The notes beneath the pieces are model-generated. The model saw only the letters and a program-made list of their open reading frames with translations. It ran no database searches and was not told the origin of the DNA. Below are positions 1 through 27,799 of a stretch of DNA of 64,000 nt, piece after piece. A program made the position numbers and the translations under genes. Position 1 is the stretch's first letter. The number at the start of each line of letters is the position of its first letter. The DNA is from Escherichia coli. GTDB lineage: Bacteria; Pseudomonadota; Gammaproteobacteria; Enterobacterales; Enterobacteriaceae. Where the stretch lies: NCBI RefSeq assembly GCF_003790525.1, contig NZ_CP033635.1; one strand, 5' to 3'.

Positions 1-1338
1 GGTCTGCCCGCACTGTGGGGGATGGTGAGTGGTGCGGTGGGCGCACTTGGCGGGGCGCTGGGTTTTCTGTTAAGTCCGGTGGGCCTTGTGGTGGCGACAC
101 TGGTCGGTGCGGCAGTGCTTATCTGGCGGCACTGGGACCAGCTGAAGGCTGTCGTGGGCGGGTTCTTGTCCGGCCTGTGGCAGGGGCTTACGCCACTGCG
201 CGAGGCTGTGGCACCACTGGGACCGCTGTTTGAGTATGTCGGGCAGACAATCGGGCGTGTGTGGCAGTGGTTCGTGGATTTGTTCGCGCCGGTAAGCACA
301 ACAAAGGATGAGCTGGACAAGTGCACGGAAGCCGGGCGTACGTTCGGGCAGAAGGTAGGGGAGTTTATCAGCAATCTGGTGACCGGTCCGGTTACGCTGC
401 TGATTGACTCATTAACCCGGGTGCTGGAAAAACTCGGGCTGATTCCGTCGGCGGTTGAGCGCGCCCGGAAAAAGGCGGAAGAACTAAAACAGAAGGAGTT
501 GCTGAACGAGAAAGCTGCCATGCTTCTGGCGGATGTTAACGTCATTAATCCGCCGAAAAAGGACGAGGATAAAAAAGACGGCGAAAAACCCAAAGGGGGG
601 CAACCACCCCTGACGGGGGAGAATACCGGCACTATGCGCCGCCTGAACAAAATCGTCGATAACACCGGTGGTCTGCTGGATGAGGCGAAACAGGCGAAAA
701 AACGCGCTGGTCCCGGCGATATTATCTTTAAAAACCTGCCGGAAGCGCTGGCCGTTCGTGGTGAGTGGAAGGAGGAACGCTTTAACCGAGCAGCTTCCCT
801 GTTACCGGGTAGTGTCAGTGAGCCACCTGTCAGACTGCCGCAGGTGCCGTCGGTCAGTGTGCCTTCGTTGCCACCGCTGCCAGCGCCACCGCCTGTCAGT
901 GTTTCGCCGCTGATATCCACCACGGCGAACGTGTCGCCGGTCGTGAAGCCGGTGGTGTCCGTGAATAATGTGCCGGTTATTCCTCCGGTCGTCCGTCCGG
1001 TACTGTCCGGTAATATTACGCCAGTGGTTCCGCCGGTGATCAAACCGGTTATGACTCACGATGTCATGCCGACGTTCTCCCCGCTAATGACACCAGTGAT
1101 GGCGGCAACATCCCGTCCGGTGGTTGAGGCTGTGCGCCAGCCCATATCCCCCGCATCGCCCCGACCGCGCCAGAGTGAGCCGGCACCATGGGGATTAACT
1201 GGCGAACTGCATATTCACCTGCATGATGTTCACACGCAAAACCCGCGCGAACTGGCAAAAATGGTGGGTGATGCCGTCCGTGCGGAAATGGAACGCCGTA
1301 TCCGCCAGACAGTCGGTAGTTTCCGTGACAGAGATTAG
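1..1338 (+). CDS. phage tail tape measure protein, C-terminal part (P2 gpT-like); 5' end outside window
   Basis: Frame is open from base 1; Pro/Val-rich C-terminal region; lies immediately upstream of a gpU-like gene as in P2 T-U; family recognised from memory, no search. Confidence 0.7.
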   Translation, partial: GLPALWGMVSGAVGALGGALGFLLSPVGLVVATLVGAAVLIWRHWDQLKAVVGGFLSGLWQGLTPLREAVAPLGPLFEYVGQTIGRVWQWFVDLFAPVSTTKDELDKCTEAGRTFGQKVGEFISNLVTGPVTLLIDSLTRVLEKLGLIPSAVERARKKAEELKQKELLNEKAAMLLADVNVINPPKKDEDKKDGEKPKGGQPPLTGENTGTMRRLNKIVDNTGGLLDEAKQAKKRAGPGDIIFKNLPEALAVRGEWKEERFNRAASLLPGSVSEPPVRLPQVPSVSVPSLPPLPAPPPVSVSPLISTTANVSPVVKPVVSVNNVPVIPPVVRPVLSGNITPVVPPVIKPVMTHDVMPTFSPLMTPVMAATSRPVVEAVRQPISPASPRPRQSEPAPWGLTGELHIHLHDVHTQNPRELAKMVGDAVRAEMERRIRQTVGSFRDRD

Positions 1339-1349
1339 GAGTACCTCTC

Positions 1350-1838
1350 ATGATGATGATTTACGGCATGTTTGTTTTTGAGTTGCGTACGCTGCCTCAT
1401 CAACAACTGCAACATAATAAAACCTGGCGCCACGTTAAAAATGAACGCATCAATCGTTCGGCCAGCTGGCAGTATATCGGGGCGGGTGACGACCAGATCA
1501 CGTTGTCCGGTGTGCTTTATCCCGAAATTACCGGCGGTGAGGTTTCCCTCAGCCTTTTAACGACGCAGGCTTACACTGGTCGCCCATGGCCGCTGATTGA
1601 CGGTGTGGGGCAGATATACGGCATGTATGTGATAACGGCTGTCCGCACAACGCGAAGCGAACTTGACCGCCACGGTAAGGCCAAAAAAATTGAGTTCACT
1701 GTCAGTCTGGAACGCTGTGATGAGGATTTGCGGGAGAGTATGGCCTCGTCGCCGGTGTCTGATATGCTTTCGGGAATGAAAGGGAAGTTAAGTTCGGTCT
1801 GGAATACCACAGTAAGCGGCGTAAATGATCTGATGTGA
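1350..1838 (+). CDS. phage tail protein U (P2 gpU-like)
   Basis: 162-aa ORF; N-terminal MMMIYGMFVFELRT... and WRHVKNERINRSASWQYIGAGDDQITLSG resemble P2 GpU family; directly follows the tape-measure gene. Confidence 0.75.
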   Translation: MMMIYGMFVFELRTLPHQQLQHNKTWRHVKNERINRSASWQYIGAGDDQITLSGVLYPEITGGEVSLSLLTTQAYTGRPWPLIDGVGQIYGMYVITAVRTTRSELDRHGKAKKIEFTVSLERCDEDLRESMASSPVSDMLSGMKGKLSSVWNTTVSGVNDLM

Positions 1839-1845
1839 AGGTAAT

Positions 1846-1865
1846 GTGCCGCATTCTTGCGGCAC
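1846..1865. terminator. 8-bp stem hairpin (GTGCCGCA-TTCT-TGCGGCAC) between convergent gpU and tail fibre assembly genes
   Basis: Perfect inverted repeat read directly in the 70-bp gap between the two convergent stop codons; no strong U-tract. Confidence 0.4.
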
Positions 1866-1908
1866 CTGCATGATGAATTATTTATGAATGCCCGTTCCTT
1901 TTCCCCGC

Positions 1909-2520
1909 TCATTCCATTTCTGGTGGTGTTTCCGGCCAGCTTATTTCAGGCTCCGTGCTGATATCCAGTGCGTTCAGCTCGTCGATATAATCCAGCACGG
2001 CATTCAGTTTTGCCGTTTCTTCTGGTGTCAGACTGCGACCTGCCCGCAACTTAAGGTTGATGAGGTCGATGGACTTCATCGCCTGATCCACCCGTTCCTT
2101 GCGTTGCTGTCTGGCAACCTCCAGCTCTTCGGCTTGCTGCCGTTCTGTATCGGTTACCCACGCCTCACCGTTCCAGGTATCCCATGGTGTGGCAGGCTGT
2201 TTTGTCGTTGTCCCTTCCGGGTAGTCACCTGGTTGGGTAATCTGGACCGGATTACCGTTCTCTGTGCTGTATACCGTCTCTCCACGATGATCGGGGACAT
2301 ACTCCCACCCGTCCAGCGTGGACGTCCGGCAAATCACGTAACCCGGCATTGCCTCTGGCGGGGCATCGGCGCATGAATGTGCCGGGGTACCCACCCCCAG
2401 GGCGAGATACTCCACAGAGGATGAGGTGTATTCCCGGGTTTCCTCATCATAGTGATATACAGTGATATCGCCTGCGAAAGTGGCGATACCGTTTTCATCC
2501 AGAACTGCAGTGTTACTCAT
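1909..2520 (-). CDS. phage tail fibre assembly protein (P2 gpG-like)
   Basis: 203-aa ORF immediately downstream of the tail fibre gene, start overlapping its stop; typical size and position. Confidence 0.75.
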   Translation of the reverse strand: MSNTAVLDENGIATFAGDITVYHYDEETREYTSSSVEYLALGVGTPAHSCADAPPEAMPGYVICRTSTLDGWEYVPDHRGETVYSTENGNPVQITQPGDYPEGTTTKQPATPWDTWNGEAWVTDTERQQAEELEVARQQRKERVDQAMKSIDLINLKLRAGRSLTPEETAKLNAVLDYIDELNALDISTEPEISWPETPPEME

Positions 2521-4754
2521 TAAACTGCCCTCACAATATAATTAAAAGCGATATTGCGCGGTCTGATCGCTATCCATCTGTCTTTTTCATTACTCACCAG
2601 CTTACCGGCTCTGGCTATTGCCCATCTGTCAACTGGTTTTGTGCCGTACAGGATGCCGTTACCGGTTCTGGGTTGATCAGGGGTTATGTTTATGATGTCG
2701 TTATCATGTGATGCAAATGAAATCCCTGCCTGAATATCTGCACCTCCCGCTACGCCGTGGTACGCCTGTATGGCGGTACAAATATATGTTGCTTCCTGTG
2801 TGGATAACAATAAGCGTCCCCTGTCAATCATTCGCAGGTCATCCCATCCACGAATAAATTCCCCGCGCAAATCTGGTAGCCTGAGGTCAGGGTAGGCCAC
2901 CGCCAGTTTTGGGTATTTTGTACGCGTGAATGCGGCACCGTTGCACTGTAACCACCCCTCAGGTGGTCTTGACGAAGGCCACGGAACGGGTACGCCAACT
3001 GGCAGCGTCGAGCCTTCTCCTAAACCAAAGTAATCAAGAATATCTTTTATGCTTTGTTTACCCATGATGACGCGGGCAACAGACGAAAAAACAGGGGCGT
3101 CTGTGATCTGAGCCCAGCGATGAGTGTGGGCTGCCGAGGCTTTGCTGTTGGCAAGGTCATACGCAGCTTTAACAGCTTTTGGTGTGGCCGCCAGCGTTTC
3201 GGAATTGCTGTTTGTGGCGCTGCTTAGCTGTACGATGCCTTTGCGTCCGGTGGTTGCATCCTGTCCTGTATACTTGCTCGTCAGCATATCGTGTAAGGCT
3301 TTAACCGCTTTGGGGGTGGCGGCCTCAGTCTCTGACTCACTGTTTGTGGCACTGCTCAGCTGTACGGTGCCTTTTGCCGTCAGCGAGGCTGATGGCACAC
3401 CTGTTATCTGATTCCACGGGTGGGTGTGGCTGGCGGGTGCTTTACCGGCTGCAAGGTCATATGCAGCCTTGACGGCTCTTGGTGTGGCCGCCAGCGTTTC
3501 GGAATTGCTGTTTGTATCGCTGCTCAGCTGTACGATGCCTTTGCGTCCAGTTGTTGCATCTGTGTTTGTCACCTCCACCCACTCTGACCATGGGCCGTTA
3601 CCGTTAAAGTTTCCGGTAACTGTCCTGATAAATTTTCGTGGCGGATCCCAGCTCGTGTATTCATGCTGGCAGAATCCCCATGCACCAACACGGATGCGTA
3701 ACTCTCCTGCCTTCTCTACAGGATAGTTTCTGTCTGTTCTCGCACCTGAGTCACTCTGCTGGTAATAATCTCCCGCGTCTTCCTTACGCCCCAGAGTGTT
3801 CAGGTCTGTTTCCCCCAGGGATGTTGTTGGCTTCACGAACGCCATGCTCAGTGCATCACTTACTGCCTTCGGTGTGGCCGCCAGTGTTTCGGAATTGCTG
3901 TTTGTGGCGCTGCTCAGCTGTACGATGCCTTTGCGTCCGGTGGTTGCATCCTGTCCTGTATACTTGCTCGTCACCATATCGTGTAAGGCTTTAACCGCTT
4001 TGGGGGTGGCCGCCTCAGTCTCTGACTCACTGTTTGTGGCACTGCTCAGCTGTACGGTGCCTTTTGCCGTCAGCGAGGCTGATGGCACACCAGTTATCTG
4101 ATTCCACGGGTGGGTGTGGCTGGCGGCTGCTTTACCGGCTGCAAGGTCATATGCAGCCTTGACGGCCTTCGGTGTGGCGGCCAGTGTTTCAGAGGTGCTG
4201 TTTGTGGCGCTGCTCAGTTGGGTGAATCCTTTTTCTGTCAGTGTCGCGTCAGGGTGGTTACGGGAACGTGCGTGTTCCGCCATTTTCTCATCAATGTAGT
4301 CCGTGGTCGGCAGAATTGTTGTTGTGTCCATGACCAGTTCCACCACGGCGTCGGAGGTGACGGTGATTACTGCACGGAATATCTGCGCCCGCCCTGAACC
4401 TTCCTCTCTGGTGGGCTTGTAACTTTCAGCGGTATTTCCTACTGCAATCATTGTACCTGTATCATCAAACACACCAATTTCACGCACCCAGAATCCGCCG
4501 GTTTCAGGAGGAATGACCAGTTCGGCGATGAGGCGGTTCGGGTTCTCCGGGTCGGTGAAGACGCGGTTGACAGACTGGCGCCAAACCTCATTGTAAAGCG
4601 ATGTCTGGTTTTTCTGCGGCTGACGAAGCTCTCCATTGCCGTCCCCTACAGCCATGTGCGTAAGGCGTACAGGTCTACCGCCAGGCGCCGTTGTTGCGGC
4701 CAGCTTTGCCAGCCCGATGTCGGTGATAAGGGTTCTGAATTTTCTCGTGCTCAT
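2520..4754 (-). CDS. phage tail fibre protein (P2 gpH-like) with multiple internal repeats
   Basis: 744-aa ORF; motif TGRKGIVQLSSATNS(N/E)SET(L/E)AATPKAVK repeated at least 6 times (phage tail fibre repeat); position between baseplate I and assembly gene. Confidence 0.85.
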   Translation of the reverse strand: MSTRKFRTLITDIGLAKLAATTAPGGRPVRLTHMAVGDGNGELRQPQKNQTSLYNEVWRQSVNRVFTDPENPNRLIAELVIPPETGGFWVREIGVFDDTGTMIAVGNTAESYKPTREEGSGRAQIFRAVITVTSDAVVELVMDTTTILPTTDYIDEKMAEHARSRNHPDATLTEKGFTQLSSATNSTSETLAATPKAVKAAYDLAAGKAAASHTHPWNQITGVPSASLTAKGTVQLSSATNSESETEAATPKAVKALHDMVTSKYTGQDATTGRKGIVQLSSATNSNSETLAATPKAVSDALSMAFVKPTTSLGETDLNTLGRKEDAGDYYQQSDSGARTDRNYPVEKAGELRIRVGAWGFCQHEYTSWDPPRKFIRTVTGNFNGNGPWSEWVEVTNTDATTGRKGIVQLSSDTNSNSETLAATPRAVKAAYDLAAGKAPASHTHPWNQITGVPSASLTAKGTVQLSSATNSESETEAATPKAVKALHDMLTSKYTGQDATTGRKGIVQLSSATNSNSETLAATPKAVKAAYDLANSKASAAHTHRWAQITDAPVFSSVARVIMGKQSIKDILDYFGLGEGSTLPVGVPVPWPSSRPPEGWLQCNGAAFTRTKYPKLAVAYPDLRLPDLRGEFIRGWDDLRMIDRGRLLLSTQEATYICTAIQAYHGVAGGADIQAGISFASHDNDIINITPDQPRTGNGILYGTKPVDRWAIARAGKLVSNEKDRWIAIRPRNIAFNYIVRAV
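3181..3480. repeat. ~300-bp direct repeat unit, copy 1, inside tail fibre gene
   Basis: Near-identical to 3871-4170 (690 bp downstream) by direct comparison of the sequence lines; partial further copies begin at 3481 and 4171. Confidence 0.8.
3871..4170. repeat. ~300-bp direct repeat unit, copy 2, inside tail fibre gene
   Basis: Near-identical to 3181-3480; only a few substitutions seen. Confidence 0.8.
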
Positions 4755-4757
4755 GGT

Positions 4758-5321
4758 TCAGTCTTCCGGGTAAATGGTGATGATGTCGCCGTCGTAACCT
4801 GCGGCAGCGGCGTAAATGGCACCGTGTATTTCCTGGATGATACTAAGCCCCACGAGGTGGCGGCTGACGGGGCGCGCATCGGCAATCAGACGCTCCATTT
4901 CTTCATGCAGCTCTTCACTTACTCCGGTTTCAAGTGTGCCAATCTCAATGGTGAAGGTCCCGGGCGAGCCGTCAAACTCCCACCATTCTGATACACGGAT
5001 GAGGTAGCCCAGTGGTTCAACGATGCGGCGGAGTGCACTGATGGTCCCTTTGTGGCGATGTATCATCCATGCGTCCCGAATCACCTGTCGCCTGGTCTCT
5101 TCCGGCCAGTTGCGGTCCCAGCTGTCAACGGAACATGCCCATGCAAGGTAGGGCAGGAGGTGAGCAGGGCAGCGGTCCGGCGACCACAGGGTGTCGGCGT
5201 CCACCGGTATGGTACTGATGCGTACTCCTGTCGCCTCTGTGGCGCGCATGAATGGCCCTGCGGACGGTGGAAGCAGTGATGTACTGTGCTGTGCGCTGTC
5301 TGTTTTTTTCCTGTCACTCAT
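4758..5321 (-). CDS. phage baseplate/tail protein I (P2 gpI-like)
   Basis: ORF 4758-5375; start placed at internal Met (MSDRKK...) next to the J stop; position between J and tail fibre as in P2. Confidence 0.7.
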   Translation of the reverse strand: MSDRKKTDSAQHSTSLLPPSAGPFMRATEATGVRISTIPVDADTLWSPDRCPAHLLPYLAWACSVDSWDRNWPEETRRQVIRDAWMIHRHKGTISALRRIVEPLGYLIRVSEWWEFDGSPGTFTIEIGTLETGVSEELHEEMERLIADARPVSRHLVGLSIIQEIHGAIYAAAAGYDGDIITIYPED

Positions 5322-6210
5322 TGCGTCCTCCTTCGCTGATGCTGAATGTGGTACATCTGGCTGCCTGAGTGTCACTGATGGTGATGTTCTGCGTGGGTTT
5401 TATGACCTCAACGCGCTGGACACCGTGAACATGCAGCGCTGCAGTGATGGCTGACAGGGCCACGTCCTGACCGATACGGCCCTGGTCTGCCAGCCATGCA
5501 CGGAAAGCGGCGTCAGCGGCCGCAAGCATGGGTTCAGACTCCGGCCCTGGATAAAAATACAGCTTCGCTTCCATTACCCAGTTCACGATGGTAGCACTCT
5601 GCACAGTCAGGCGGTCGGCAACCGGGCGCACGTTCTCGGCATTCAGGGCGGTGCGCACCGTGTTCAGTAACGCCTCACCGGCGGTGCCGTCACCGTCTGC
5701 TGACAGGATGGAGACGGTGACTGTGGCCGGTGACGGGCTGATGGCGCGCGCATCACGGACAAGACCGCTTGCGCTCCGGGCAAAATACTCATACGCGCCG
5801 GACGGTCCGGCCACACTCAGGCCGTCCCAGGCTGACTGGGCACGCAGACGCAGCGATGTGTCGCTTTCCATCACTGCTTCCGTGGTATCAGTGGCCGGAT
5901 GAATGACCAGGCGGCGGGTGTTGTTGTTGGCGGCCAGATTGTCCAGGTCACTGCCCCGGCTGTGGCTGAGCATGCAGGCGCGGGCGGCTTCATTGATGCG
6001 CTGGCGAAGCAGCATTTCACGAAAGGCCATGGCCTGGGAAATGATGTTCAATGGCTCGGATTCCAGAGTAAGGGCACGGGTGACGGCGGCGCGGTATTCT
6101 TCCGGGAAGGAGCTCACCATCATGGTTTTAATGTCTGCCAGGATGGACTCAAAATCCGGCTGCGCGATGATGGCCGGTTCCGGTAACTGTGACAGGTCAA
6201 CGGAAGGCAT
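5314..6210 (-). CDS. phage baseplate assembly protein J (P2 gpJ-like)
   Basis: 298-aa ORF (P2 J is about 300 aa); position between W and I. Confidence 0.8.
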   Translation of the reverse strand: MPSVDLSQLPEPAIIAQPDFESILADIKTMMVSSFPEEYRAAVTRALTLESEPLNIISQAMAFREMLLRQRINEAARACMLSHSRGSDLDNLAANNNTRRLVIHPATDTTEAVMESDTSLRLRAQSAWDGLSVAGPSGAYEYFARSASGLVRDARAISPSPATVTVSILSADGDGTAGEALLNTVRTALNAENVRPVADRLTVQSATIVNWVMEAKLYFYPGPESEPMLAAADAAFRAWLADQGRIGQDVALSAITAALHVHGVQRVEVIKPTQNITISDTQAARCTTFSISEGGRNE

Positions 6211-6213
6211 GAT

Positions 6214-6564
6214 TTACTCCCTCAGGGTGATACTGAATGTGATGTTCTGCATGGTTTCGGTGATGATGCCGGATAACGTCACCACGGCGCGTCCGCCAGC
6301 CCGCCAGTTCACATCGACGTTCTGCAGTGCTATACGGGGTTCATGGCGCGCCAGCGCAGTCACCGTGGCGCTCATGCACTGTAAACGCGTGGTGTCGTTC
6401 ATGGGCTCGTCGATGAGGTCCGGTAACAGGCTGCCGTATTCGCGGCGCATCACCCGGCTGCCTGGCGGTGTGGTCAGGATATCCCGCACGCTGTTTTTCA
6501 GGTGTTCGCTGTCGCTCAGCGTGCCGGTTCCCTGCGGGTTCATCCCCCTGTAAACAGCGGTCAT
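6214..6564 (-). CDS. phage baseplate protein W (gpW/gp25-like)
   Basis: ORF 6214-6729; start placed at internal Met (MTAVYRGM...) giving ~116 aa, overlapping the V stop; P2 synteny. Confidence 0.75.
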   Translation of the reverse strand: MTAVYRGMNPQGTGTLSDSEHLKNSVRDILTTPPGSRVMRREYGSLLPDLIDEPMNDTTRLQCMSATVTALARHEPRIALQNVDVNWRAGGRAVVTLSGIITETMQNITFSITLRE

Positions 6565-7142
6565 TGCGGGCCTCCCGTGGTGCCCGGGCCCGTCCTGACG
6601 CCACCGTGGGTGTGCGTATGAACGGTGATACCGTTGGATGTCAGGCTGCCGCCGCTGTGGGATATGCTGCCGCGCATCTCGCCGCCGTTCTGCACCTCCA
6701 GGGTGGCGGTGATAAGTTTGCGGGTACACACCACCTCCGACGTGTCCAGGGTGATGCGCGTGTCGGCCTGAATGCTGGCTGTTTTAATCCCCTTAACCTC
6801 CAGTGCACCGGCGTCTGCATCGTAGCGGAATACCGCACCGTCCGGTGCTGTCATGATGATTTCCTTCAGTGTGCTGCCCGGTGCCGGGATATCATCGCTC
6901 CAGAGGCTGCCGATGATTATCGCGGTTTCGGGATTACCACCGATACAGACGAACGCCACCTGTTCACCGGTGGCTGGCGGCACCCAGACACTGAACGCGC
7001 CCGCCCGCGCGGTGCTCCAGCGAAGCCAGCCTGTCTCCAGTCCGCCACTGCGCACCCGGACCTCCCAGGTCTGCGGGTTCACGTCGAAAATCACGCCGGT
7101 TCTGATGATGTTGCTGATAAGGCGCATTAATTCCGCGTTCAT
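6561..7142 (-). CDS. phage baseplate assembly protein V (spike, P2 gpV-like)
   Basis: 193-aa ORF; Gly-rich C-terminus; between S and W. Confidence 0.75.
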   Translation of the reverse strand: MNAELMRLISNIIRTGVIFDVNPQTWEVRVRSGGLETGWLRWSTARAGAFSVWVPPATGEQVAFVCIGGNPETAIIIGSLWSDDIPAPGSTLKEIIMTAPDGAVFRYDADAGALEVKGIKTASIQADTRITLDTSEVVCTRKLITATLEVQNGGEMRGSISHSGGSLTSNGITVHTHTHGGVRTGPGTTGGPQ

Positions 7143-10430: not shown

Positions 10431-11207
10431 TTAACCACGTTTCGCCTTCGCTTTCGCCTTCGGCGTCGTGGTCTGTTCTCTGGTTGTATCTTTCTGTGCC
10501 GCAGGCTCCTGTGCGGCAGCGGCTTCATCCTGTCCGGCCTTTTTCAGGGCCCGTGAAAGCGTGGCAATCTCACGTTTTACCCCCGCATTCGGGTTAAGGT
10601 GCATTGCCTCACGGAACAGCTTCAGACTCACCGCCATGCTGTCGGCATCGGTCAGGCCACGACGGGCAAAGGCGCATGCCTTGCACAGCTTGGCGCGGAC
10701 CTCATCGGGCATGTCCCGGTTCGCGACAATTTGCCAGAGGGTGTCCAGCGGTTCGATGTAGCCGGACAAATCGGCGTGTGCATCCGTTCCGGCCTGTGTC
10801 AGAACAGGGTTGCAGATTTCCTCGGTCAGTACCGTGGCTGCCGTACGCCCGAAGTTGTCAGGCATCGTGAGGTTGTGGCGAACCACATAATCCCCGATGC
10901 GCAGTGCAAGCGCCAGGTCGCCACAGTCCACGGCCCACACCATGAGTGTGGCTATCACCTCATCCTGCTGTCCGCCGTCGGCTTCCAGCGTGCCGTCTAT
11001 CCAGCCTGCAAAACCCGGCAGCATTTCACGCTTGAGCGCGGCCTTTGCCGCTTTTGCCTGGACGCCCTTTATGCGTTGCTGTGCCAGGCGCAGACGGTGA
11101 AGGACCTGCTCATGAGCCGTGCGGGCCACGATATCCTCGTTTTCTGCTGCCGTTCCTGCCCGTAAAGCCATCACGTGCTGGAAATGAGCCTGTGCCGGTG
11201 TCAGCAT
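10431..11207 (-). CDS. phage terminase endonuclease (small) subunit (P2 gpM-like)
   Basis: 258-aa ORF following the major capsid gene; basic Lys/Ala-rich C-terminus. Confidence 0.75.
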   Translation of the reverse strand: MLTPAQAHFQHVMALRAGTAAENEDIVARTAHEQVLHRLRLAQQRIKGVQAKAAKAALKREMLPGFAGWIDGTLEADGGQQDEVIATLMVWAVDCGDLALALRIGDYVVRHNLTMPDNFGRTAATVLTEEICNPVLTQAGTDAHADLSGYIEPLDTLWQIVANRDMPDEVRAKLCKACAFARRGLTDADSMAVSLKLFREAMHLNPNAGVKREIATLSRALKKAGQDEAAAAQEPAAQKDTTREQTTTPKAKAKAKRG

Positions 11208-11209
11208 GG

Positions 11210-12349
11210 TTAATCCTCCTCTTCCCCTGCATCCTTGTCTTCAGCCTGCGCTGACAGTGCTTTTATGCCCTCCCGGTACCAGTCCGGCGCGTCATGGTCA
11301 TATTCGGCAAAGCTGATATTCTCAATCAGTGCGCACTTACCATGGTCCTCAACCACATAGCAGTCGTTAACGGACTGATAGATGGCGATACGGTTGTATT
11401 CGGGCTCATCCTTCATGAGACGACGCATGGACCCCTTCTGCCAGTAAACCGACAGGTTGCTGAATGAGGTGATGAGCATTGACTGAGCCGGGAAAAATGG
11501 CGCAAGGTACACATCAAGGTCGCCAATGGTCCGCGTTGACACAATGAGCTGTCCGGCAAGCAGTTCGGCATTCGCATTCTGCATGCTGATACTGTTCAGG
11601 ACCGGCAGGCGCAGGGAGTTAAAGAGGTTTCGCCCCATGATGACAACGAGGTCGTCTGCGTCCTTGTGCCATTCGTCAAGCAGGGATGAGCGTGCATCCT
11701 GGACCAGTGCATCGGGATTGGCGTATCTGCCTGTGTATGCCACCGAATTGTCCATATTGCGCGCAGTCAGCATCACGTCTTTCATGACGCGTTGCGGGGC
11801 CTGGTCCCTGATATCCTGCAGCCACCCCTTATTGACGTCCTCAAGTCGCGGGTGTTTTTTTATATCCGAGACTTCCGCATGGTGCGTACCGTTAAAACCT
11901 GTCATGATGCGATCAAGTGCCACCTGTCTGGCAATCTGGCGACTCACACGCAGCTGGAAGTCAGGGTGTCCGGCCCACATGTCAAGCTGAGGGTAGGAGA
12001 TGAAGGTGTCGTAGTTCACCTGCTCGCACTCATAGCGTCGCGCTTTCATGTCCACCACATTCAGCGGGTTACGACGATTTGTACCGTCATAACTGCTGTT
12101 CGTGCGCGCAACCGGCCCGGTGGTGTCCAGGAGTACCTTTTCACCTTTCTGCTCTGTCACACCAATGCTGTTGGCTTTCTGAAGAAAATCATGGCTTTCC
12201 TTTGATGCGTTTTCAAATCTCTGCTGCACTGCCGGCTGTACCGAAAAGCGGGAGGAGAGCGCAGATATCGTGATGTTATTCATCTCCGCCTGTTGTGCCT
12301 GGTAAGCAAAAAGCTCGGCCCGCGCGGCATCGCTCATGATCAGATTCAT
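11210..12349 (-). CDS. phage major capsid protein (P2 gpN-like)
   Basis: 379-aa ORF between scaffold and terminase M. Confidence 0.8.
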   Translation of the reverse strand: MNLIMSDAARAELFAYQAQQAEMNNITISALSSRFSVQPAVQQRFENASKESHDFLQKANSIGVTEQKGEKVLLDTTGPVARTNSSYDGTNRRNPLNVVDMKARRYECEQVNYDTFISYPQLDMWAGHPDFQLRVSRQIARQVALDRIMTGFNGTHHAEVSDIKKHPRLEDVNKGWLQDIRDQAPQRVMKDVMLTARNMDNSVAYTGRYANPDALVQDARSSLLDEWHKDADDLVVIMGRNLFNSLRLPVLNSISMQNANAELLAGQLIVSTRTIGDLDVYLAPFFPAQSMLITSFSNLSVYWQKGSMRRLMKDEPEYNRIAIYQSVNDCYVVEDHGKCALIENISFAEYDHDAPDWYREGIKALSAQAEDKDAGEEED

Positions 12350-12377
12350 CGGTTATCACCTCTTGTGGTTATTTCTG

Positions 12378-13214
12378 TCAGTAGTCAGCCAGTTGTCTGG
12401 ACTGCCCGCCGGTTGCCGTAAAACGACTTTCCTGATCAGCGTCCAGTCCGCGCAGTCTGTTTTTCAGCTCTGCCAGCTCAGTGGACAGGGTGGCGATTTT
12501 CTGTCTGTCTGCCTGATGGCGCGATTCCAGTGCACTGAAGCGGTCGAGAAGGTCGGCATGCGATGAGGCTATCCCCTCAACGGCGTCATGAATGCGGGAG
12601 AACCGGGTGTCGTCAGCCCTGCGTCCTCGCCCAATCATGTTCATCACGCGGTTAAGCCACTGCGCACCTTCCTCGCTGCGGCGCTCCGTCAGTTCGATCA
12701 CTTCAGCCTCAATGGCGTCAGAGAACATCGGTGCTTCCGTCTGCTGATTATTGAAGGTCATGACCGAACGGCGCTGCTGCAGGGCGAACTGAAGACGCTC
12801 CGTGCCGATGCTTGCCGGGGTGTCTGTCATGGCAAGGCCAATAAGATACGGGGTGCCCGTAGGGGTGAAATTTCGTGCCAGCTCAATACTGGAGTAAATT
12901 TTCTTACCCCGGGAGACCAGATTTTTCATGCGGTCGGTGGGTTCGATTTCCGCATACAGCGCAGTACGACCGACCAGCGGACCTTCGGTGATTTCTTCTG
13001 TGCTCAGTGCCGTCACATCACCCATGGCGGAAAATTCACTGGACGGAACCGGTGAAAGCCAGTGCTCCACGTTCACGCGTGCGCCGTAAATCTCAGGGTT
13101 GAAGTTACTGGCCGCCGCGCGCAAATCTGCGGCACTGATTTCGCGACCGTCTGCGGTGGGACCGGAAACGGCCACGCGGAATGTTTTACGGGATGTTTTT
13201 TTCTGTTCAGGCAT
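12378..13214 (-). CDS. phage capsid scaffolding protein (P2 gpO-like)
   Basis: ORF 12378-13355; start at internal Met (MPEQKKTSRK...) gives ~279 aa; divergent from terminase gene as in P2. Confidence 0.8.
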   Translation of the reverse strand: MPEQKKTSRKTFRVAVSGPTADGREISAADLRAAASNFNPEIYGARVNVEHWLSPVPSSEFSAMGDVTALSTEEITEGPLVGRTALYAEIEPTDRMKNLVSRGKKIYSSIELARNFTPTGTPYLIGLAMTDTPASIGTERLQFALQQRRSVMTFNNQQTEAPMFSDAIEAEVIELTERRSEEGAQWLNRVMNMIGRGRRADDTRFSRIHDAVEGIASSHADLLDRFSALESRHQADRQKIATLSTELAELKNRLRGLDADQESRFTATGGQSRQLADY

Positions 13215-27687: not shown

Positions 27688-27799
27688 TTATTTGTGATAA
27701 TTTGCTCCCCTTGTTTTTGTTTACTTATTGAAAAATAAGGAAATCAGCAAGAGGAGTAAGTACCGTTAAATCTCCTGCGGGCGCTTTTTTTGTCTCCCT
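27688..27799. other. putative prophage-chromosome junction (att region); core not identified
   Basis: Non-coding stretch between the int stop and the dmsA FNR site; the other prophage end is outside the window. Confidence 0.3.

What the first reader, a model, noticed from the sequence alone, without database searches (positions are those of the whole stretch)
1..2520. Tape-measure/gpU block is convergent with the tail-fibre genes, breaking canonical P2 synteny
From O through G the gene order matches P2 exactly, all on the minus strand. In P2 the genes G, Z/fun, FI, FII, E, T, U, D follow co-directionally. Here T(C-terminus)-U lie on the plus strand and end only 70 bp from the 3' end of G, with a hairpin between them and no D gene after U. 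This implies an inversion of the sheath/tube/tape-measure block, or a junction with a second tail-module fragment, located exactly at the Z/fun hotspot position. It may indicate a rearranged, possibly defective, prophage.
Basis: partly seen in the sequence, partly recalled or inferred. Interest (0 to 1): 0.5.

Follow-up and report, generated by a model that had tools for sequence, protein, structure and literature searches.

The report
Native P88-type P2-like prophage tail order
The tape-measure and gpU genes do face the tail-fibre genes, but this is the normal gene order of a known group of working P2-related phages (P88 and relatives), so it is an ordinary, apparently intact E. coli prophage.

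Summary
The T C-terminus (1-1338, +) and gpU (1350-1838, +) end 70 bp from the 3' end of the tail-fibre assembly gene G (1909-2520, -). A perfect 8-bp hairpin lies in the gap, and no D gene follows U.

The "rearranged, possibly defective" reading does not hold.
- The window is an E. coli chromosome. The same junction occurs in 26 complete genomes.
- Left of the window the prophage continues as E', E, FII, FI (+), then a divergent D and ogr (-). Every tail gene is single-copy and T is an intact 1103-aa ORF.
- Five ICTV genera of Peduoviridae share this order: Xuanwuvirus P88, Gemsvirus, Reipivirus, Novemvirus and Senquatrovirus. P88, phiSM and SEN4 form plaques.
- In a census of phage records, about 49 of 514 have U and D split. 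In the sampled rows these were the records closest to this one. P2-type adjacency holds in 395.

So the FI-U block is inverted relative to P2, but this is an old feature of the whole clade. The 159-167 bp D|FI spacer keeps a P2-type activator dyad placed as in P2's shared pO/pP site, which suggests one Ogr box drives both directions.

The parts
1..1338 (+). C-terminal 445 codons of tape-measure gene T. The ORF begins 1973 bp left of the window; the full protein is 1103 aa.
   Evidence: a continuous ORF in the TUM1886 locus, L002 18027-21338; aligns end to end with the P88 tape measure (935 aa, 55% identity, two insertions). PhageMin_Tail, E 2.6e-52.
1350..1838 (+). gpU homologue (tail protein), last gene of the inverted FI-U operon
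   Evidence: PF06995 Phage_P2_GpU, E 2.8e-41; about 80% aa identity to gpU of P88 and other Xuanwuvirus/Gemsvirus phages.
1839..1908 (.). 70-bp convergent intergenic gap between the U stop and the G stop. It is empty of cargo.
   Evidence: Relatives carry different content at the same junction: 155 bp (phiT5282H), 204 bp (SEN4), an invertase plus alternative-fibre cassette (P88, 500465-2), or DUF262 plus a hypothetical gene (ST16-OXA48phi5.4).
1847..1866 (.). Perfect 8-bp GC-rich hairpin with a 4-nt loop, 9 nt after the U stop. Candidate operon-end stem-loop, but not a canonical intrinsic terminator.
   Evidence: plus strand -20.7 kcal/mol, z = -2.63; the terminator scan reports nothing here, because no T-run follows on either strand. 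P88 and phiT5282H have non-homologous GC hairpins right after U; the P88 one is flanked by A- and T-runs; no Rfam match.
1909..2520 (-). Tail-fibre assembly gene (G equivalent), last gene of the V-G operon
   Evidence: Caudo_TAP, E 4.5e-27. RefSeq calls it 'tail fiber assembly protein'.
2520..4754 (-). Tail-fibre gene H (744 aa) with an internal 690-bp duplication
   Evidence: Phage_tail_fib N-terminus, six Phage_fiber_2 repeats, Collar domain; 3163-3462 and 3853-4152 are 96% identical.
4758..7142 (-). Baseplate genes I (4758-5321), J (5314-6210), W (6214-6564) and V (6561-7142), co-directional with H and G
   Evidence: Tail_P2_I, Baseplate_J, GPW_gp25, and Phage_base_V with Phage_spike. RefSeq coordinates.
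27774..27788 (.). Probable attR core, CCTGCGGGCGCTTTT, between int and dmsA. The matching copy lies just after serS, outside the window.
   Evidence: this is the only shared word of at least 14 nt between the two flanks; my estimate of the chance expectation is about 0.001; int lies next to dmsA and serS lies at the other end, giving a prophage of about 37.4 kb.

Best explanation
The region is the convergent end-to-end meeting of two late tail operons of an intact, P88-type P2-like prophage (family Peduoviridae), integrated between serS and dmsA in E. coli.

In this clade the FI-FII-E-E'-T-U operon is inverted relative to P2. Its last gene, U, therefore faces the last gene of the V-W-J-I-H-G operon. 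D and ogr kept their orientation, so D now lies upstream of FI and divergent from it.

Shown:
- gene identities
- single-copy status of every tail gene
- an intact T ORF
- collinearity with P88
- the same order in five genera
- viability of phages that have this order

Inferred:
- One Ogr-type activator dyad (TGT-N12-ACA) in the 159-167 bp D|FI spacer serves two divergent late promoters, as the single annotated site does for pP/pO in P2. D therefore gained its own late promoter.
- The GC hairpin after U marks the end of the FI-U transcript.
- The G|U junction is the clade's variable cargo site, occupying the position that Z/fun holds in P2. It is empty in this prophage.
For: - Gene identities: (Pfam GpU, Caudo_TAP, PhageMin_Tail, Phage_GPD, sheath, tube, Ogr_Delta).
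- Left context. The order in the TUM1886 locus is ogr(-), D(-), FI(+), FII, E, E', T, U(+), G(-), H(-) and so on. That locus differs from the window at 7 of 22,600 bases.
- Same order in other phages: P88, 500465-2, ST16-OXA48phi5.4, phiT5282H, SEN4. The P2 control is co-directional with U-D adjacent.
- Collinearity: blastn against P88 gives about 70-75% identity from ogr to U and from mid-H onward.
- Census with a fused U+D query: 514 phage records matched. In 395, U and D are contiguous. About 49 records have two separate places. Every two-place row in the 60-row sample shows 60% or more identity to this D, and every contiguous row shows under 52%.
- The junction is 97-100% identical over the full 2.6-kb query in 26 complete E. 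coli genomes.
- No second copy of any tail gene and no invertase in 84 kb.
- T is an intact 1103-aa ORF.
- Viability: P88 is induced by mitomycin C, forms plaques, has a burst size of about 65 and shows a head and tail by electron microscopy (PMC5285337). phiSM forms plaques (PMC6456863). SEN4/5 forms plaques and has myovirus morphology by electron microscopy (PMC5261728).
- Promoter: a conserved TTGTTG plus a TGT-N12-ACA-like dyad occurs in all six D|FI spacers. Its centre lies 70-77 bp from the D ATG and 81-89 bp from the FI ATG. The P2 pF box centre is 83 bp from the FI ATG. P2 annotates one box for the divergent pO/pP pair, 55-56 bp from each transcription start. In the 42.6-kb locus, 2 of the 7 exact dyads fall in the two divergent late spacers.
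Against: - No transcription start sites or expression data exist for this clade, so the bidirectional promoter is inferred from sequence and spacing only.
- The dyad is exact in only two of the six spacers; the other four have one mismatch.
- The hairpin lacks a T-run on both strands and fails the terminator scan, so its role as a terminator is uncertain.
- Nobody has shown that this particular prophage is inducible.
- RefSeq flags T as a pseudogene in several genomes. I attribute this to partial homology-based annotation, because the ORF has no stop or frameshift.
Confidence: 0.93

Rival explanations
1. A recent inversion or other rearrangement produced a defective prophage remnant.
For: The order differs from P2. 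RefSeq labels T 'incomplete; missing C-terminus' in TUM1886 and CM2.
Against: - Plaque-forming phages of five genera have the same order.
- The T ORF is continuous and aligns end to end with the P88 tape measure.
- All P2-type morphogenesis genes, ogr, int, C-like, cox and the replication endonuclease are annotated as intact.
- A candidate att core of 15 bp flanks a 37.4-kb element.
Confidence: 0.03
2. The junction joins two different tail modules, for example tandem or nested prophages, or a tailocin fragment abutting a P2-like prophage.
For: The convergent orientation and a very short gap could suggest a recombination joint.
Against: - tblastn finds D, FI, FII, E, T, U, ogr, G and H each exactly once in the 20 kb to the left plus the 64-kb window.
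- Both sides of the junction are collinear with a single phage genome, P88.
Confidence: 0.02
3. The junction is an assembly artefact at 1800-1950.
For: None beyond the unusual orientation.
Against: The 2.6-kb query spanning the junction is matched in full at 97-100% identity in 26 complete-level E. coli genomes. They come from different countries, hosts and chromosome sizes. Related junctions occur in independently sequenced phages.
Confidence: 0.01

Closest known systems
Escherichia phage P88 (Xuanwuvirus, Peduoviridae; NC_026014) and Gemsvirus 500465-2
   Same: - Identical order and orientation of R S V W J I H G | U T E' E FII FI | D.
- gpU about 80% aa identity; T 55% aa identity.
- About 70-75% nucleotide identity along the tail genes.
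- Same size of D|FI spacer with the same TTGTTG dyad.
- A hok-like locus beyond D/ogr.
   Different: - P88 and 500465-2 carry a DNA invertase and an alternative, inverted fibre-tip plus assembly cassette between G and U. This prophage has only 70 bp there and no invertase.
- T is 168 aa longer here.
- The lysis enzyme is a lysozyme here, against an M15 peptidase in P88.
Senquatrovirus SEN4 and Novemvirus phiT5282H
   Same: Same split order, with an 'empty' convergent G|U gap (204 bp and 155 bp) as in this window, and a divergent D next to FI.
   Different: More distant in sequence: gpU of phiT5282H is 68% identical, and the SEN4 match to the D portion of the query is 60%. Hosts are Salmonella and Enterobacter.
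Phage P2 / 186 (Peduovirus, Eganvirus): canonical synteny
   Same: - Same set of late genes.
- Same V-G operon.
- Same E/E' chaperone pair, T, U, D and ogr.
- Same type of activator dyad upstream of FI at the same distance, 83 bp against 85.5 bp from the ATG.
   Different: - In P2, FI-FII-E-T-U-D is one operon co-directional with V-G, and U is directly followed by D.
- Z/fun sits between G and FI.
- Here FI-U is inverted and D is separated from it.

Membership tests
P88-type clade of Peduoviridae (Xuanwuvirus, Gemsvirus, Reipivirus, Novemvirus, Senquatrovirus) | P2-family late genes present (GpU, GPD, sheath, tube, tape measure, V/W/J/I baseplate, Ogr/Delta) | tested here: met
   Pfam hits, all above the gathering cut-offs
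P88-type clade of Peduoviridae (Xuanwuvirus, Gemsvirus, Reipivirus, Novemvirus, Senquatrovirus) | Gene order: H, G, then U-T-E'-E-FII-FI on the opposite strand, then D and ogr on the H/G strand | tested here: met
   for the locus; for the reference phages
P88-type clade of Peduoviridae (Xuanwuvirus, Gemsvirus, Reipivirus, Novemvirus, Senquatrovirus) | Closest protein relatives are members of the clade | tested here: met
   Best gpU hits are P88-type phages at about 80%. In the sample, all D matches at 60% or more are split-order phages.
Genus Xuanwuvirus specifically | Whole-genome nucleotide similarity of about 70% or more to P88 (ICTV genus criterion, from my own knowledge) | tested here: inconclusive
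   Aligned tail and head segments are 70-75% identical, with unaligned stretches in the T C-terminus, the fibre and the lysis genes. The early region was not compared. Overall similarity is probably below the genus threshold.
Canonical P2/186 synteny | F operon co-directional with the V-G operon, and U immediately followed by D | tested here: not met
   U faces G. D lies about 5.8 kb from U on the other strand. P2 control.
Invertible tail-fibre segment (Gin/Cin/Hin-type serine-invertase switch) | Serine invertase gene and an inverted alternative fibre-tip cassette at the G|U junction | tested here: not met
   tblastn with the P88 invertase finds nothing in 84 kb. The gap is 70 bp. No inverted repeats of 20 bp or more in 1-5000.
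Ogr/Delta-dependent P2 late promoter | TGT-N12-ACA dyad centred about 55 bp upstream of the transcription start | tested here: met
   An exact dyad, TGTCGCTGTCAGGAGACA, lies in the D|FI spacer outside the window. It is 85.5 bp from the FI ATG (83 bp in P2 pF) and 76.5 bp from the D ATG. The motif is conserved in six phages. Only sequence and spacing were tested.
Ogr/Delta-dependent P2 late promoter | Activator-dependent transcription start mapped experimentally | not testable with these tools
   Needs 5'-RACE or RNA-seq after induction
Intrinsic (rho-independent) terminator | GC-rich stem-loop immediately followed by a U-run | tested here: not met
   The stem is present at 1847-1866, but no T-run follows on either strand and the scan finds no site in the gap.

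The most novel reading that the evidence does not exclude
The inversion that defines the P88-type clade rewired P2 late transcription. One Ogr box in a spacer of fixed length (159-167 bp) now drives FI-U in one direction and D (perhaps with ogr) in the other, giving five late units instead of four. The new convergent G|U joint took over from the Z/fun site as the place where cargo is inserted (invertase/fibre cassettes, DUF262 genes). In the full-text searches run here I found no paper that comments on this architecture.
Probability: 0.5. Interest if true: 0.25.

Novelty: already known. Interest (0 to 1): 0.08.

Why it matters
It matters little beyond correct annotation.
- Convergent T-U/G-H orientation is not a sign of a broken P2-like prophage. 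It marks the P88-type clade, which makes up roughly a tenth of the deposited phage records that match gpU/gpD.
- D should be looked for upstream of FI.
- RefSeq 'pseudogene' labels on the long tape-measure gene in these prophages are probably annotation artefacts.
- The shared-activator-site model for D and FI is a small, testable point about how P2-type late regulation tolerates inversion of an operon.

Tried and rejected
- Megablast of 1-2600 against the phage collection found only the G gene. The protein search was needed to find relatives.
- The terminator scan found no canonical terminator in the gap. An Rfam search of 1-3000 found nothing. I therefore do not call the hairpin a terminator.
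- Tandem Repeats Finder found nothing in 1-5000. The Pro/Val-rich T repeats are too diverged at the DNA level.
- I looked for an invertase or crossover-site remnants that would mark a deleted P88-type invertible segment. There is no invertase homologue and no inverted repeat of 20 bp or more.
- Literature searches for an explicit description of the inversion found none ('Peduoviridae' with 'synteny', 'tail sheath' and 'inver'; and the words invert, inversion, opposite, orientation, rearrang or synteny in the P88, phiSM and SEN4 papers; not every word was tried in every paper).
- The second-tail-module and assembly-artefact readings are rejected.

Full report
**1. What is in the sequence**

- A frame-1 ORF runs from the window edge to 1338 on the plus strand.
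- gpU follows at 1350-1838 (PF06995, E 2.8e-41).
- On the minus strand lie a tail-fibre assembly gene (1909-2520, Caudo_TAP), a 744-aa fibre gene H (2520-4754), and then I, J, W and V.
- The gap between the two stop codons is 1839-1908, which is 70 bp.
- The gap holds a perfect hairpin, GTGCCGCA-TTCT-TGCGGCAC, at 1847-1866. The plus strand of 1836-1912 folds at -20.7 kcal/mol, z = -2.6.
- No D gene follows U.

**2. Where the window comes from and what lies to its left**

Megablast places the window in E. coli chromosomes. The 2.6-kb query spanning the junction is matched in full at 97-100% identity in 26 complete genomes, from chickens and humans in several countries. This rules out an assembly artefact.

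The TUM1886 locus differs from the window at 7 of 22,600 bases. Its gene order runs:
- serS, then a roughly 2.5-kb unannotated stretch
- hok, a hypothetical gene, ogr(-), D(-)
- FI sheath(+), FII tube(+), E, E', T, U(+)
- G(-), H(-), I, J, W, V, S, R, the lysis genes, X, L, M, N, O(-)
- P(+), Q(+), then the replication and early genes
- cox, a C-like repressor and int, next to dmsA

Pfam confirms D (Phage_GPD), sheath, tube, tape measure and Ogr_Delta. A 15-bp direct repeat, CCTGCGGGCGCTTTT, lies just after serS and again at window 27774-27788. It bounds an element of about 37.4 kb.

**3. Is anything broken or duplicated?**

No.
- T is a continuous ORF of 1103 aa. It aligns from Met1 to the last residue with the 935-aa tape measure of phage P88. 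The 'incomplete, missing C-terminus' flag in RefSeq therefore appears to be a by-product of homology-based annotation, not a lesion.
- tblastn finds D, FI, FII, E, T, U, ogr, G and H each exactly once in the 20 kb to the left plus the whole 64-kb window. There is no second tail module.

**4. The order is native to an established lineage**

The best gpU relatives are Escherichia phage P88 and its allies, at about 80% aa identity.

The annotated P88 genome reads V W J I H G (+), then an invertible cassette and invertase, then U T E' E FII FI (-), then D (+). This is the same architecture as here.

blastn shows collinearity with P88 at about 70-75% identity, from ogr through U and from mid-H onward.

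The same order is annotated in four more genera:
- Gemsvirus 500465-2
- Reipivirus ST16-OXA48phi5.4
- Novemvirus phiT5282H
- Senquatrovirus SEN4

P2 itself shows the co-directional FI-FII-E-T-U-D operon, with Z/fun between G and FI.

To count the two arrangements I ran tblastn with a fused U+D query against the phage collection. A P2-type genome then gives one joined place; a split genome gives two.
- 514 records matched.
- In 395, one place covers at least 80% of the query (U and D adjacent).
- About 49 records have two places.
- In the 60-row spread sample, every two-place row shows 60% or more identity to this D. Every joined row shows under 52%. The joined rows include Pseudomonas, Burkholderia, Ralstonia, Vibrio and Mannheimia phages.

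The simplest reading is that the P2 order is ancestral and one inversion occurred at the base of an enterobacterial clade.

**5. Phages with this order work**

- P88 was induced with mitomycin C. It forms plaques, has a burst size of about 65, and shows a head and tail by electron microscopy (PMC5285337).
- phiSM of Citrobacter rodentium is 76.8% identical to P88. It forms plaques and lysogenises K-12 (PMC6456863).
- SEN4/5 forms plaques and has myovirus morphology (PMC5261728).

None of these papers contains the inversion-related words I searched for, and a wider full-text search found nothing.

**6. How it probably works (inference)**

The inversion separated D from its operon. In all six genomes compared, the D|FI spacer is 159-167 bp long. 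It contains a conserved TTGTTG and a TGT-N12-ACA-type dyad.
- The dyad is exact in this prophage and in SEN4, and has one mismatch in the other four.
- Its centre lies 70-77 bp from the D start codon and 81-89 bp from the FI start codon.

The P2 record gives two precedents.
- The pF activator site is centred 83 bp from the FI ATG.
- A single activator site is annotated for the divergent pP and pO promoters, 55-56 bp from each transcription start.

In the 42.6-kb locus only seven exact dyads occur, which is no more than chance for the locus as a whole. However, two of them fall in the two short divergent late spacers, D|FI and O|P. I therefore propose that one Ogr box drives FI-U in one direction and D in the other.

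At the other end of the operon, the hairpin after U is a candidate transcript end.
- P88 has a GC hairpin flanked by A- and T-runs immediately after U, and phiT5282H has a GC hairpin there too.
- The hairpin in this window has no T-run on either side and fails the terminator scan.
- Its function therefore remains uncertain.

**7. The junction as a variable site**

The content between G and U differs among relatives:
- empty in this window (70 bp)
- 155 bp in phiT5282H
- 204 bp in SEN4
- an invertase plus an inverted alternative fibre-tip and assembly cassette in P88 and 500465-2
- DUF262 plus a hypothetical gene in ST16-OXA48phi5.4

In this prophage it carries nothing.

**8. Verdict**

It is refuted in its main implication, that the prophage is rearranged, defective or a junction artefact.

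The feature is already represented in annotated public phage genomes. This prophage is a further member of that clade without the invertase cassette. Interest is low.

Noticed in passing
window 1-1338; loci L010 and L011: The tape-measure length varies among near-identical E. coli prophages: 1103 aa here, about 1180 aa in strain CM2 and 1238 aa in Br_112_kylling, against 935 aa in P88. CM2 has a 77-aa duplication of the Pro/Val-rich C-terminal module. The T frame is open to its stop across the part of the gene fetched for CM2, and the full ORF is open in Br_112_kylling, yet RefSeq flags T as a pseudogene in both.
   Followed up: partly
window 3101-4250: The tail-fibre gene H contains an internal 690-bp duplication (3163-3462 and 3853-4152, 96% identical). 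Within it, 160-nt units repeat at 300/390-bp spacing. These correspond to the six Phage_fiber_2 repeats.
   Followed up: partly
L002 10356-13100 (outside the window, 7-9.6 kb to its left): The prophage end between serS and ogr is about 2.5 kb with no annotated genes. It contains a second, diverged copy of the hok-type region (10842-11220, 77% identical to the P88 hok region) and 230-520-bp direct repeats (11283-11991 against 12133-12655).
   Followed up: partly
window 27774-27788 and L002 10385-10399: A 15-bp direct repeat, CCTGCGGGCGCTTTT, flanks the prophage. It is the probable att core, placing integration between serS and dmsA.
   Followed up: partly
L003 10612-12515 (Klebsiella phage ST16-OXA48phi5.4): At the G|U junction this relative carries a DUF262-domain gene plus a hypothetical gene. 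This may be an anti-phage cargo at the position equivalent to Z/fun. I did not scan it against the defence libraries.
   Followed up: no
L003 18638 and L004 6578: The annotated sheath (FI) start codons of ST16-OXA48phi5.4 and phiT5282H appear over-extended, by 126 and 45 nt. The conserved MSETRFHG start lies downstream, and using it restores a D|FI spacer of about 160 bp.
   Followed up: yes
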